NCBI GenBank assembly: GCA_965242795.1
Contig: OZ251505.1
Location: 431,133 to 495,132, forward strand
DNA length: 64,000 nt
Reading direction: 5' to 3'
DNA from: an uncultured Candidatus Binatia bacterium
GTDB taxonomy: Bacteria > Desulfobacterota > Binatia > Bin18
The notes under the pieces are model-generated. The model searched no databases. It was not told where the DNA came from and was given only the letters and a program-made list of their open reading frames with translations. Numbering within the stretch: the stretch's first letter is position 1; every line of letters begins with the position of its first letter. Of this stretch, positions 1 through 635 are shown one piece after another. Both the position numbers and the translations under genes were made by a program.

Positions 1-477
1 TGGGACGGCTGGCGACTGCTGACCCAGGAGTTGGGCGACCGGGTACAGTTGGTCGGCGACGACCTGTTCGTGACCAACCGGCACCGACTGGAGCGCGGAA
101 TCGCCGACGCCGCGGGCAACGCGATTCTGGTCAAGGTCAACCAGATCGGTACGCTGAGCGAGACCTTGCAGACCGTCGCGCTGGCCAAGCGGCACGGCTA
201 TGCTGCGGTCATCTCGCACCGTTCGGGCGAGACCGAAGACGCCACGATTGCCGACCTGGCCGTGGCGCTGGACGCCGGCCAGATCAAGACCGGCAGCGTC
301 TGTCGCGGGGAACGCACCGCCAAATATAACCAGTTGTTACGCATCGAAGAGCAGCTCGGCAGCCGCGCGACCTACGCCGGGCGGCGGGCATTTCGGCGGG
401 GTTCGCTTCGACCTTTCGACAGGCTCAAAGCACCGCAAGCTCGAAGCACCGTACGCTCAGGGACAGCCCATCCCTAA
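1..477 (+). CDS. eno: Enolase (phosphopyruvate hydratase), 5'-partial; the C-terminal ~35 aa read through a dispersed repeat copy
   Basis: Frame-1 translation [10 protein letters not shown]...[17 protein letters not shown]...[19 protein letters not shown]...GQIKTGS...[11 protein letters not shown] matches the conserved enolase C-terminus. The reading frame continues through repeat-derived sequence to the stop at 477. Confidence 0.9.
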
Positions 478-635
478 GTTCGTTGAGCTTGTCGAAACGA
501 ACCCCGATGTCGCCTCGGCCTTCGCACCCCACTCCCGGCCCTTTGACTCTTCGACAAGCTCAGGAGCTAGATTGTTGAACTTGGCCCCTGAAATTGCGGT
601 GCCTTGAGCCTGTCGAAAGGTGTCGCAACGGGCGC
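400..635. repeat. Dispersed intergenic repeat family A copy (modules TTCGACAGGCTCAA / GTTCGTTGAGCTTGTCGAAACGAACCCC / TTGAGCCTGTCGAAAGG)
   Basis: Related copies occur at ~20740-21000, 30118-30165, 41815-41850, 54365-54450 and 59400-59445, in both orientations. Each carries an internal inverted repeat (GTTCGTT...AACGAAC). Confidence 0.7.

What the first reader, a model, noticed from the sequence alone, without database searches (positions are those of the whole stretch)
400..635. Novel dispersed intergenic repeat family A (TTCGACAGGCTCAA / GTTCGTTGAGCTTGTCGAAACGAACCCC modules) present at six or more loci in both orientations
Copies or fragments occur at 400-635, 20740-21000, 30118-30165, 41815-41850, 54365-54450 and 59400-59445. 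The core contains the inverted repeat GTTCGTT...AACGAAC and can fold into hairpins. Copies are mosaic, with modules in direct and inverted order at 20.7-21.0 kb, and all are intergenic. The picture is consistent with a REP/MITE-like mobile hairpin family. The copy at the 3' end of eno is read through by the eno frame and appends ~35 residues (...[28 protein letters not shown]) to the enolase C-terminus.
Basis: seen in the sequence. Interest (0 to 1): 0.55.

Follow-up and report, generated by a model that had tools for sequence, protein, structure and literature searches.

The report
Pan-bacterial hairpin repeat, conserved 13-nt loop
The reported repeats are real: they are local mosaic clusters of a short DNA hairpin, with a fixed 13-base loop (TTCGACARGCTCA) and a variable stem, that occurs in intergenic DNA of some twenty bacterial phyla, appears able to insert into new sites and into its own loop, and here has lengthened the enolase protein by about 24 amino acids.

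Summary
The core TTCGACARGCTCA occurs 13 times at 7 intergenic loci, against 0.4 expected by chance.

Each copy is a hairpin with a conserved 13-nt loop closed by a 3-7 bp stem whose sequence varies but stays complementary.

The family is not confined to this window or lineage. The same core, and even the exact 25-mer GTTCGTTGAGCYTGTCGAAACGAAC, occurs in genomes of 31-74% GC from about 20 phyla. It appears as single hairpins, inverted doublets of 58-98 nt, tandem arrays and nested arrays.

Syntenic relatives lack the roughly 380-nt block at the eno 3' end, so it is an insertion. It replaces the native stop, and eno gains 27 residues after the conserved Phe, about 23-25 more than in relatives, not about 35.

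I found no target-site duplication, no GTAG or CGTC tag, no neighbouring transposase, no Rfam family at threshold, and no paper containing the motif.

Pairing is almost purely Watson-Crick and symmetric between the strands, which points to a DNA-level hairpin rather than an RNA.

Best reading: a REP/BIME-like, non-autonomous hairpin element mobilised in trans by an unidentified enzyme. It belongs to neither described REP superfamily. Interest is moderate to high.

The parts
1..477 (+). 3' part of eno (enolase). Residues 132-158 (nt 394-474) and the stop codon (475-477) are encoded by the repeat block.
   Evidence: The best homologues are Enolase_C proteins, several of them named Ca. Binatia. 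The alignment shows relatives ending 1-5 residues after conserved F131 in most cases, whereas the window has 27 more.
397..775 (.). Inserted repeat block between the eno 3' end and the conserved promoter-like region of the histone-like gene (TTTTTGTTGCA...ATCTGATA, from about 776).
   Evidence: The block is absent from the syntenic loci L127 and L126, whose eno-to-next-gene spacers are about 130-150 nt (alignment A3).
397..466 (+). Partly nested array: left halves GGGGTTCGC / TTCGAC / CTTTCGAC, then right halves AGGCTCAAAG / CACCGC-AAGCTCGAAG / CACCGT-ACGCTCAGGG.
   Evidence: Read directly from the sequence. Two inner pairs of stems are complementary (CTTT/AAAG, GCTTC/GAAGC). The same architecture occurs in Binatia MAG loci.
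407..435 (+). Hairpin unit (core 415-427).
   Evidence: CM R1: 22.2 bits, E 2.7e-4.
476..504 (-). Hairpin unit GTTCGTT-GAGCTTGTCGA-AACGAAC (core 484-496).
   Evidence: CM R1: 28.2 bits, E 3.6e-6. Predicted 7-bp stem.
503..547 (+). Lineage-specific tail CCCGATGTCGCCTCGGCCTTCGCACCCCACTCCCGGCCCTTTGAC that travels with the hairpin unit.
   Evidence: 472-535 matches 20773-20836 in inverted orientation (64 nt, 88%, I1). 491-618 is 78% identical to Binatia MAG L114 321-463 (alignment A2).
549..563 (+). Hairpin unit, core only (550-562).
   Evidence: CM R1: 18.6 bits, E 0.0036.
597..625 (-). Hairpin unit (core 605-617). Together with 411-438 it forms a 28-nt inverted repeat (594-621).
   Evidence: CM R1: 27.3 bits. 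Inverted repeat I8 is 96% complementary. The composite 405-627 folds at -56 kcal/mol as DNA, z -8.0.
20804..20832 (+). Hairpin unit GGGGTTCGTTTCGACAGGCTCAACGAAC. On the minus strand its tail ends directly at the AGGAGG and ATG (20744) of ispH/lytB.
   Evidence: CM R1: 28.8 bits. Sequence. LYTB domain.
20845..20873 (-). Hairpin unit, inverted partner of 20804-20832 (doublet).
   Evidence: CM R1: 25.5 bits. Fold.
20909..20975 (+). Nested array: outer GGGGTTCG...CGAACTGAGGG enclosing TTCGAG/TTCGAG/TTCGAC-AAGCTCGGG (core 20933-20945).
   Evidence: Sequence. CM R1 hit 20925-20963: 20.6 bits.
30132..30160 (+). Solitary hairpin unit (TTTGAC variant) between divergent genes.
   Evidence: CM R1: 22.4 bits. 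97% complementary to 476-506 (I5).
41814..41842 (-). Solitary, degenerate unit between a TPR gene and the next gene.
   Evidence: CM R1: 15.3 bits, E 0.037. Also.
48698..48726 (+). It lies upstream of the carboxyltransferase gene.
   Evidence: CM R1: 20.5 bits, E 9e-4. Direct repeat D11 with 54375-54433.
54375..54443 (.). Inverted doublet (units 54375-54403+ and 54414-54443-) in the convergent spacer between thyX and an HNH gene.
   Evidence: CM R1: 15.7 and 15.3 bits. RNA fold -28.6 kcal/mol, z -3.0. Flanking genes.
59404..59435 (-). Solitary, degenerate unit (TTCGACGAGCTCG) upstream of a Crp-family gene.
   Evidence: CM R1: 15.4 bits, E 0.036. Also.

Best explanation
**What it is.** The loci are clusters of a short, non-coding, non-autonomous DNA hairpin element. 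The unit is a 13-nt loop of fixed sequence (TTCGACARGCTCA on one strand, TGAGCYTGTCGAA on the other) closed by a 3-7 bp stem. The stem can have almost any sequence as long as it stays Watson-Crick complementary.

Units occur singly, as inverted doublets closed by a second covarying outer stem (canonically CCGTTCG...CGAACGG, 58-98 nt overall), as tandem runs, and nested inside one another's loops. The genome behind this window is probably a member of Ca. Binatota. It carries a local elaboration: a GGGGTTCG...CGAACTGAGGG unit plus a roughly 45-nt tail, assembled into BIME-like mosaics.

**How it most likely works.** This part is inferred, not shown. The element is copied or moved as a single-stranded DNA hairpin by an enzyme supplied in trans. 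It lands in intergenic DNA without duplicating the target, and preferentially in exposed single-stranded loops, including the centre of its own loop (TTCGAC^ARGCTCA). That preference would generate the nested arrays. Because nearly identical units occur in very different phyla, it must also spread horizontally, or else be read by a very widely distributed protein.

**Effects in this window.** These look like by-products. One cluster landed on the last codons of eno, removed the stop and added about 24 residues. Another sits directly against the ribosome-binding site of ispH.
For: **Real and non-random.**
- 13 copies against 0.4 expected.
- A model trained on foreign copies finds exactly these 13.

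**Hairpin with a covarying stem.**
- In 133 foreign copies not selected on their flanks, the covariation score is 0.464 against 0.177 for shuffles (0/500 reach it) and 0.09-0.15 for slid partners.
- The three inner pairs are 82-89% paired, with 3-4 pair types each.

**DNA-level, not strand-specific.**
- The inner pairs are 83% Watson-Crick.
- G.T (41) equals A.C (42).
- Solitary copies show no significant orientation bias relative to neighbouring genes (19 against 10 downstream of genes, 16 against 12 between tandem genes).

**Insertion.**
- The 397-775 block is missing in syntenic L127 and L126, while the flanking eno end and the promoter-like box are conserved.

**Self-nesting.**
- The mirrored order of stem triplets in (TTCGAC)n...(GCTCA)n arrays gives 25 matches against 19.8 expected (0/2000 permutations reach it). 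L088 scores 3/3 and L095 scores 5/6.

**Amplification of variants within a genome.**
- 3 near-identical GTTCGTT units occur in the window.
- 4 GGCGC-stem units occur in L139.
- Up to about 20 places per Sphingobium megaplasmid.

**Breadth.**
- 80% of those hits have a partner core or a recurrent 3' flank.
- The exact 25-mer occurs in 15 metagenome contigs of 34-48% GC with no synteny to the window.

**No target-site duplication.** None was seen in 28 canonical doublets.

**Context typical of tolerated selfish repeats.** About 80% are intergenic, and convergent spacers (53) outnumber divergent ones (30).
Against: - No mobilising enzyme was found. No protein family recurs next to the copies, and there was no RAYT-like ORF in about 1 Mb of loci or in the window (the probe sequence was recalled from memory). 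Only fragments of each genome were available.
- No empty and filled site pair between very close relatives was available, so exact element ends are not defined. The eno comparison is with relatives at only 81-84% protein identity.
- Solitary units and doublets show no conserved 5' target. Loop-centre targeting is therefore inferred from nested arrays only, and those are few and mostly from one MAG.
- Extreme conservation of the loop across phyla could instead reflect a host function.
- Some copies are conserved at orthologous positions in related metagenome contigs (L130, L134, L135, L140).
Confidence: 0.6

Rival explanations
1. It is a structured RNA element (a terminator, mRNA stabiliser or processing signal, or an sRNA module). 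On this view the hairpin and doublet fold in transcripts and are kept by selection on RNA function.
For: - Both the small stems and the outer stem covary strongly.
- The only curated relative is an expressed sRNA, Rfam RF02901 AaHKsRNA41, whose 5' part is a doublet of the same motif.
- Copies often lie just downstream of highly expressed genes: eno here, gap in L015, and tRNA-Glu in L017.
Against: - Wobble pairs are rare and symmetric between strands (G.T 41, A.C 42).
- There is no significant orientation bias.
- Copies occur in divergent promoter regions as well as at 3' ends.
- Monomers are no more stable than shuffled sequence.
- No U-tract terminator is present at the eno locus.
- Presence differs between syntenic relatives.
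- Nested and tandem arrays are hard to explain by RNA function.
- No Rfam family reaches threshold.
Confidence: 0.12
2. It is a classical MITE: a deletion derivative of a DDE-transposase insertion sequence, recognised through its terminal inverted repeats.
For: - 411-438 and 594-621 form 28-nt inverted repeats bounding a 211-nt segment.
- The composite units with a 45-nt tail are shared with a Binatia MAG.
- Doublets are discrete elements of 58-98 nt.
Against: - No target-site duplication.
- The unit can be as small as about 20-30 nt.
- The stem sequences vary freely, whereas transposase-bound inverted repeats should be conserved in sequence.
- No parent IS or transposase appears in any locus.
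- There is no evidence of larger elements carrying the two halves at their ends (12 against 9 in the control).
Confidence: 0.08
3. It is a host-domesticated DNA site. On this view a widely conserved DNA-binding or DNA-processing protein (nucleoid-associated protein, topoisomerase, recombinase or repair factor) recognises the loop in extruded hairpins, and the repeats persist because they serve chromosome biology.
For: - The loop sequence is almost invariant from 31% to 74% GC genomes and across about 20 phyla.
- Pairing is DNA-like and strand-symmetric.
- Some copies are conserved at orthologous positions.
- From general knowledge, E. coli BIMEs bind IHF, gyrase and Pol I.
Against: - The motif is absent from 5,426 complete E. 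coli genomes, and copy number is very patchy (often one per 8 kb locus), so no universal function can depend on it.
- Insertion into a coding 3' end and against an RBS looks accidental.
- No candidate protein has been identified.
Confidence: 0.15
4. It is a chance similarity, or a coding-derived motif (a conserved peptide such as PFDRLR), rather than a DNA repeat.
For: The motif translates to readable peptides. It is read as protein at the eno tail, and some copies lie inside long ORFs in high-GC loci.
Against: - The shuffle expectation is 0.4 against 8-13 observed.
- Copies occur in all frames and both orientations.
- Flanks covary as base pairs, not as codons.
- Neighbouring genes are unrelated.
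Confidence: 0.01

Closest known systems
REP / BIME elements of enterobacteria and pseudomonads, and REPIN-RAYT systems
   Same: They are short, intergenic, high-copy palindromes. They occur as singletons, inverted doublets that form long hairpins, and mosaic clusters. Doublets pair two different unit types, as BIMEs pair Y and Z units. Hairpin-preserving compensatory changes are seen, and there is no target duplication.
   Different: There is no GTAG head. The conserved part here is a 13-nt loop and the stem is free to vary, the opposite of REPs. The family spans about 20 phyla with near-identical sequence, whereas REPIN families are lineage-specific and vertically inherited (abstract of bioRxiv 10.1101/2022.05.22.493013). 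No RAYT was found.
GTAG- and CGTC-tagged REP superfamilies (Di Nocera et al. 2013, PMC3733652)
   Same: Both are surveys of stem-loop repeats found in several phyla, organised as head-to-head and tail-to-tail dimers, sometimes inside genes. The CGTC class also lacks a dedicated transposase.
   Different: Those families have stems of 6-13 bp and loops mostly of 2-5 nt, with an unpaired GTAG or CGTC tag and often a CCA tail. None of this applies here. The paper's text does not contain the motif. The window does carry a separate GTAG-type REP (GTAGGGGCGA...TCGCCCC).
Rfam RF02901, AaHKsRNA41 (Aggregatibacter sRNA 41)
   Same: The first roughly 100 model positions are an inverted doublet CUGAgCUUGcCGAAG ... 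UUCGgCAAGcUCAg closed by an outer stem. This is the same architecture and nearly the same loop sequence.
   Different: Matches score 17-29 bits against a gathering score of 97. The rest of the sRNA is unrelated. It is one transcribed instance in one species, not a description of the repeat family.
Rickettsia palindromic elements (RPE)
   Same: They are palindromic repeats that insert into protein-coding genes and are read in frame, adding peptide segments, as happens at the eno C-terminus here. This comparison rests on general knowledge; RPE-4 and RPE-6 are cited as CGTC REPs in PMC3733652.
   Different: RPEs are 100-150 bp, restricted to one genus and unrelated in sequence.
IS200/IS605-type single-strand transposition (IS608 TnpA) and hairpin-loop nicking by HUH endonucleases
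   Same: These provide a mechanistic analogy only: hairpins recognised in single-stranded DNA, no target duplication, and insertion next to a short specific sequence. The loop-centre insertion site resembles nick sites located in the hairpin loops of rolling-circle origins (general knowledge).
   Different: No Y1/HUH gene was found. No conserved target precedes solitary copies. The unit is far smaller than an IS end pair.

Membership tests
REP, GTAG/CGTC superfamilies | Unpaired GTAG or CGTC tetranucleotide at one foot of the stem-loop. | tested here: not met
   Position logos of 115 foreign copies and of the 13 window copies show no such tag. The 5' flank is unconserved beyond -4, and the 3' flank is GSG followed by CGAACGG, TGACA or ACCG.
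REP, GTAG/CGTC superfamilies | Stem of 6-13 bp with a short loop (mostly 2-5 nt). The stem sequence defines the family. | tested here: not met
   The loop is 11-13 nt and nearly invariant. The stem is 3-7 bp with at least 10 different sequences.
REP, GTAG/CGTC superfamilies | Many intergenic copies, often as inverted dimers. | tested here: met
   13 copies at 7 intergenic loci in the window. Across loci there are 63 '-+' and 31 '+-' adjacent pairs.
REPIN-RAYT system | Two inverted REPs that form one hairpin-forming unit. | tested here: met
   In the window: 411-621, 20804-20873 and 54375-54443. In other taxa: 55 doublets with a covarying outer stem.
REPIN-RAYT system | A single-copy RAYT (Y1 HUH transposase) gene in the genome, flanked by the repeats. 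| tested here: inconclusive
   No RAYT-like ORF was found in the window or in about 1 Mb of loci, and no neighbouring family recurs. Whole genomes could not be searched.
REPIN-RAYT system | Lineage-specific, mainly vertical inheritance. | tested here: not met
   The same core occurs in about 20 phyla. An identical 25-mer occurs in 34-48% GC contigs and in this 64% GC window.
MITE (DDE-transposon derivative) | Terminal inverted repeats plus a target-site duplication of fixed length. | tested here: not met
   Inverted repeats are present, but there are no duplications above chance at k=2-6 in 28 doublets.
MITE (DDE-transposon derivative) | A parent IS with the same ends. | tested here: inconclusive
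   None was seen in the loci. ISfinder-type databases were not available.
Rfam RF02901 AaHKsRNA41 | Score at or above the family gathering threshold (97 bits). | tested here: not met
   17 bits in the window and 25-29 bits on canonical doublets.
Intrinsic terminator | GC-rich hairpin with a short loop followed by a T-run. | tested here: not met
   The scan of 300-1300 finds no such site at the repeats. Units have 11-13 nt loops and no T-run.

The most novel reading that the evidence does not exclude
The TTCGACARGCTCA-loop hairpin defines a third, so far uncharacterised superfamily of bacterial palindromic repeats, alongside the GTAG and CGTC REPs. It is spread over some twenty phyla including CPR bacteria. 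Its specificity lies in a conserved loop rather than in the stem, and it inserts into the centre of its own loop. That would imply an unknown, widely distributed or horizontally travelling loop-specific single-strand DNA nuclease or transposase (or another copying mechanism) waiting to be identified.
Probability: 0.35. Interest if true: 0.8.

Novelty: new variant of a known kind. Interest (0 to 1): 0.62.

Why it matters
- **An open mechanistic question.** Short palindromic repeats are common, but the known ones are lineage-specific and are recognised through their stems and a GTAG or CGTC tag. A hairpin whose 13-nt loop stays essentially invariant from 31% to 74% GC genomes and across about 20 phyla, while its stem is free to change, calls for a sequence-specific reader that is either very widespread or travels with the element. 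None is known. Identifying it could reveal a new single-strand DNA enzyme.
- **Experimental handles.** The nested arrays and the abundant copies in cultivable Sphingobium and Sphingomonas strains make the question testable.
- **Annotation.** These units create spurious ORFs and altered gene ends. Examples are the 27-residue enolase tail here and the recurring PFDKLRAN / LSLSKG-type peptides, which I recall from database entries and did not test here. They also sit in promoter and 5' UTR regions, as upstream of ispH.

Tried and rejected
- **Rfam.** At gathering threshold on the window and on 18 loci with canonical doublets, the only hits were a tRNA and an SRP RNA. Permissive searches gave only a sub-threshold AaHKsRNA41 hit and generic miRNA-hairpin noise.
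- **Literature.** Full-text searches for 12- and 14-mers of the motif and for its peptide translations found no relevant paper; the 12 hits were primers. The REP surveys PMC3733652, PMC12306157 and PMC6006769 do not contain the motif. The AaHKsRNA paper says nothing about sRNA41.
- **Source genome.** Exact-protein look-ups of two window proteins found nothing, so the source genome is not in that collection.
- **Phage origin.** There were only 5 hits in 2.9 million viral contigs, close to my own estimate of the chance level.
- **Associated gene.** All-against-all clustering of ORFs from 126 sequences (125 loci and the window) gave only generic families such as ABC ATPases. A GAPDH cluster at three loci turned out to be coincidence.
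- **RAYT probe.** A probe sequence recalled from memory, run with phmmer, gave no hit.
- **The unit as an attachment site for larger elements.** Split halves with matching stems 60-7500 nt apart were not enriched (12 against 9 in the control).
- **Target-site duplications and a conserved target.** None was found.
- **Orientation bias relative to genes.** Not significant.
- **Lineage-specific junction pattern.** GTCGAAACGAACCCCGAKGTCRCC gave 0 hits in metagenomes.
- **Window composite against plasmids.** No match.
- **Canonical doublet against E. coli.** No match.
- **Ideas considered by eye and dropped.** Integron attC sites (the R'/R'' cores do not fit), the hammerhead core, Tn3-family inverted repeats, tRNA T-loop or D-arm derivation, and complementarity to 23S rRNA. 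The resemblances were partial and not testable here.
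Full report

Yes. The 14-mer TTCGACAGGCTCAA occurs 8 times with up to 2 mismatches, against 0.43 expected from shuffles. The 28-mer hairpin occurs 3 times against 0 expected.

Scanning for the 11-nt centre and inspecting the flanks gives 13 copies at 7 loci:
- four at 407-625
- three at 20804-20963
- one each at 30132-30160, 41814-41842, 48698-48726 and 59404-59435
- two at 54375-54443

A covariance model built only from copies found in other organisms (A4/R1) recovers exactly these 13 at E<=0.04 with filters off. 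The next hit has E=0.07 and lies inside a gene.

The 48.7 kb copy was missed. All loci lie between genes supported by codon-position GC and Pfam:
- eno and a Lys/Ala-rich histone-like gene
- ispH and a zinc alcohol dehydrogenase (divergent)
- an unknown gene and an enoyl-CoA hydratase (divergent)
- a TPR gene and an unknown gene
- an AlbA_2 gene and a carboxyltransferase
- thyX and an HNH gene (convergent)
- an unknown gene and a Crp-family regulator (divergent)

**2. Anatomy of the unit.**

Oriented on the TTCGAC strand, every copy has the 13-nt core flanked by short complementary sequences that differ between copies: GTTCGTT/AACGAAC (three copies), CCTT/AAGG, CTTT/AAAG, CCC/GGG and CCCG/CGGG. 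The unit is therefore a hairpin with a conserved loop and a variable stem.

Single units are not unusually stable (RNA z-scores -1.8 to +0.7). Inverted pairs do make strong structures. The doublet 54372-54440 folds at -28.6 kcal/mol (z -3.0). The whole 405-627 segment folds as DNA at -56 kcal/mol (z -8.0). That fold uses the 28-nt arms 411-438/594-621 (96% complementary) and the inner pair 484-496/550-562.

In this lineage the hairpin also carries fixed tails (GGGG on the 5' side, TGAGGG on the 3' side) and a roughly 45-nt extension, CCCGATGTCGCCTCGGCCTTCGCACCCCACTCCCGGCCCTTTGAC. The extension recurs at 20762-20806 in the opposite orientation and in a Ca. Binatia MAG.

**3. The family is not local.**

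I estimate about 35 chance hits for the whole 596-Gb collection. Of the 139 hits, 80% have a second core within 200 nt or one of a few recurrent 3' flanks, so they are family members.

The record titles name, among others:
- Bacteroidota and Cyanobacteria
- alpha-, beta- and gamma-Proteobacteria
- Actinomycetota and Chloroflexota
- Acidobacteriota and Planctomycetota
- Verrucomicrobiota and Lentisphaerota
- Nitrospirota and NC10
- Myxococcota and Desulfobacterota
- Armatimonadota and Eremiobacterota/Vulcanimicrobiota
- Thermotogota, Latescibacterota and Zixibacteria
- several CPR lineages
- Ca. Binatia

Locus GC ranges from 0.31 to 0.74. Isolates are included, for example Microbacterium mangrovi, Microlunatus endophyticus, Sphingopyxis, Sphingobium, Moraxella caviae and a complete Sphingomonas chromosome.

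Sphingobium megaplasmids carry up to about 20 places each, with no annotated feature under the matches. The motif is absent from 5,426 complete E. coli genomes.

Even the exact 25-mer of the window's best hairpin, GTTCGTTGAGCYTGTCGAAACGAAC, occurs in 15 metagenome contigs of 34-48% GC that share nothing else with the window.

Enolase homologues and three loci of MAG OZ241332.1 that share the lineage-specific composite point to Ca. Binatota as the source.

**4. Structure evidence from foreign copies.**

The test set was 133 distinct copies that were not selected on their flanks. Eight flanking pairs give 60.8% paired cells against 42.2% in shuffles. The covariation score is 0.464 against 0.177 (0/500 shuffles reach it). 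Slid partners give 0.09-0.15. The three innermost pairs are 82-89% paired, each with three or four pair types (for example CG 39, UA 35, GC 29).

In 55 inverted doublets the two small stems are individually perfect in 48 and 49 cases. The triplets would pair across the arms, as one long hairpin requires, in only 7-8 cases. The two hairpins of a doublet share the same stem in only 8 cases. Recurrent combinations pair CCC with GGC, TGG or TGC, much as BIMEs pair Y and Z units.

A 7-bp outer stem also covaries: CCGTTCG/CGAACGG, CCGCTCA/TGAGCGG, GCCTCA/TGAGGC, CTGTCA/TGACAG.

Pairing is DNA-like. The inner pairs are 83% Watson-Crick, and G.T (41) equals A.C (42), so neither strand is favoured. Solitary copies show no significant orientation bias relative to adjacent genes. 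This argues for a hairpin formed by either DNA strand rather than for a strand-specific RNA.

**5. Evidence for insertion and for self-nesting.**

Two contigs encoding close enolase homologues (L127 at 84% and L126 at 81% identity over the fragment) are syntenic with the window: eno, histone-like gene, hydrolase or ABC, luciferase-like. Their eno-to-next-gene spacer is about 130-150 nt.

The window has roughly 380 extra nucleotides (397-775). On one side lies the last conserved eno codons. On the other lies a conserved box, TTTTTGTTGCA...ATCTGATA, followed by AGGGGTTCCC...AGGAGG-ATG. So the block is an insertion relative to these relatives.

Canonical doublets (58-98 nt, 28 examined) have no target-site duplication and no conserved flanking target.

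Arrays of the form (stem-TTCGAC)n followed by (ARGCTCA-stem')n occur in the window (397-466, 20909-20975), in the Binatia MAG and occasionally elsewhere. The order of unusual stem triplets is mirrored:
- L088: CCT, TCC, CGT against CCT, TCC, CGT
- L095: 5 of 6 in order
- overall: 25 matches against 19.8 expected, 0 of 2000 permutations reaching the observed value

Slippage of half-units would not preserve mirrored stems. Successive insertion of whole units into the centre of a resident unit's loop would. Outer right halves are preceded by a 4-6 nt linker (CAYCGC, ACCAC, CCCCGG), which I read as the 3' tail of the inserted unit. That reading is an inference.

**6. Effect on eno.**

The eno frame runs through the first array and ends at TAA 475-477. 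In an alignment with 16 homologues, most end 1-5 residues after the invariant Phe (F131 of the fragment, nt 391-393). The window has 27 further residues, [27 protein letters not shown]. Most of the 120 listed homologues align over only about 83-85% of the fragment, and none reaches the end of the tail. The extension is therefore real and is caused by the repeat. It is about 23-25 residues longer than usual, not about 35.

At locus B the composite unit ends directly at the AGGAGG and ATG of ispH. The promoter or 5' UTR of ispH therefore lies in or beyond repeat DNA.

**7. What it is not.**
- It has no GTAG or CGTC tag, and it has the inverse conservation pattern of those REP superfamilies.
- It has no target duplication and no parent IS, as a DDE-type MITE would.
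- No Rfam family reaches threshold. The only related entry is RF02901, an Aggregatibacter sRNA whose 5' part is one doublet of this motif (17-29 bits against 97).
- No terminator-like site lies at the eno locus.
- No protein family recurs next to the copies, and no RAYT-like ORF was seen. Only fragments of genomes could be examined.
- Full-text searches of the paper library for the motif or its translations found nothing relevant.

**8. Interpretation.**

Shown:
- a real, dispersed hairpin repeat with a conserved loop and covarying stems
- distribution across very many phyla
- at least one insertion relative to syntenic relatives
- nested arrays with mirrored stems
- no target duplication
- DNA-like, strand-symmetric pairing

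Inferred:
- movement as single-stranded hairpin DNA by a trans-acting enzyme
- a preference for exposed loops
- horizontal spread

The main rivals are a host-used DNA site and a structured RNA. Neither is excluded, but both fit the orientation, wobble, polymorphism and nesting data less well.

**9. Verdict.**

The finding is more interesting than a genome-specific REP. The unit belongs to a very widespread family that fits neither described REP superfamily, and I could not find it described in the searchable literature or in Rfam.

The mechanism remains unproven, and my recollection of seeing its peptide translations in many databases suggests annotators have met it before. I rate it a new variant of a known kind, with interest 0.62.

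Noticed in passing
window 30007-30037, 32833-32863, 57790-57820 (and the related palindrome at 32715-32734): This is a second, unrelated repeat family: a classical GTAG-tagged REP, GTAGGGGCGA-loop-TCGCCCC, with 4 hairpins against 0.4 expected. The copy at 30007-30039 is 94% identical to a site in the Binatia MAG (L095 1992-2025). A RAYT-type system may therefore also exist in this lineage.
   Followed up: partly
window 46997-47296 and 48837-49136: A 300-nt direct repeat (88% identity) duplicates the 5' end of the carboxyltransferase gene (48909-50477). The two copies flank a gene with Schlafen/AlbA_2 and HATPase_c_4 domains (47398-48603). It looks like a gene insertion that left a partial duplicate of the target gene.
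   Followed up: partly
window 887-1114: A 75-residue Lys/Ala-rich, histone-H1-like ORF built from 12-nt periodic repeats (AKKAVKK...). It is conserved directly downstream of eno in the syntenic relatives L127 and L126, with a different repeat number. It has no Pfam hit.
   Followed up: partly
window 54568-54888 (-): A stand-alone 106-residue HNH endonuclease gene lies next to the repeat doublet at 54375-54443. No link between the two could be shown, and no HNH gene recurred near copies elsewhere.
   Followed up: partly
L017 338-432 (Ca. Staskawiczbacteria); L046 3037-3227 (Ca. Peregrinibacteria): In two CPR genomes a single copy of the hairpin sits at or just after the 3' end of a tRNA gene. 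In L017 it abuts tRNA-Glu directly. In L046 it lies 87 nt downstream of tRNA-Tyr. Whether this is chance or reflects a preference for tRNA 3' ends is unknown.
   Followed up: no
L010 2791-2809, L015 132-150; window 397-477: Copies lie next to glycolytic genes in unrelated taxa: just upstream of gap in a Burkholderiales MAG, about 80 nt downstream of gap in Anaeromyxobacter, and on the eno 3' end here. This may be coincidence, or a tendency to sit near highly expressed genes.
   Followed up: no
window 19344-20744 (-) and 52549-54336 (+): The longest ispH/lytB ORF has about 97 residues ahead of the LYTB domain, so the start may be miscalled or there may be an N-terminal extension. thyX is 595 residues long with two Thy1 matches. 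Both are unusual lengths.
   Followed up: no
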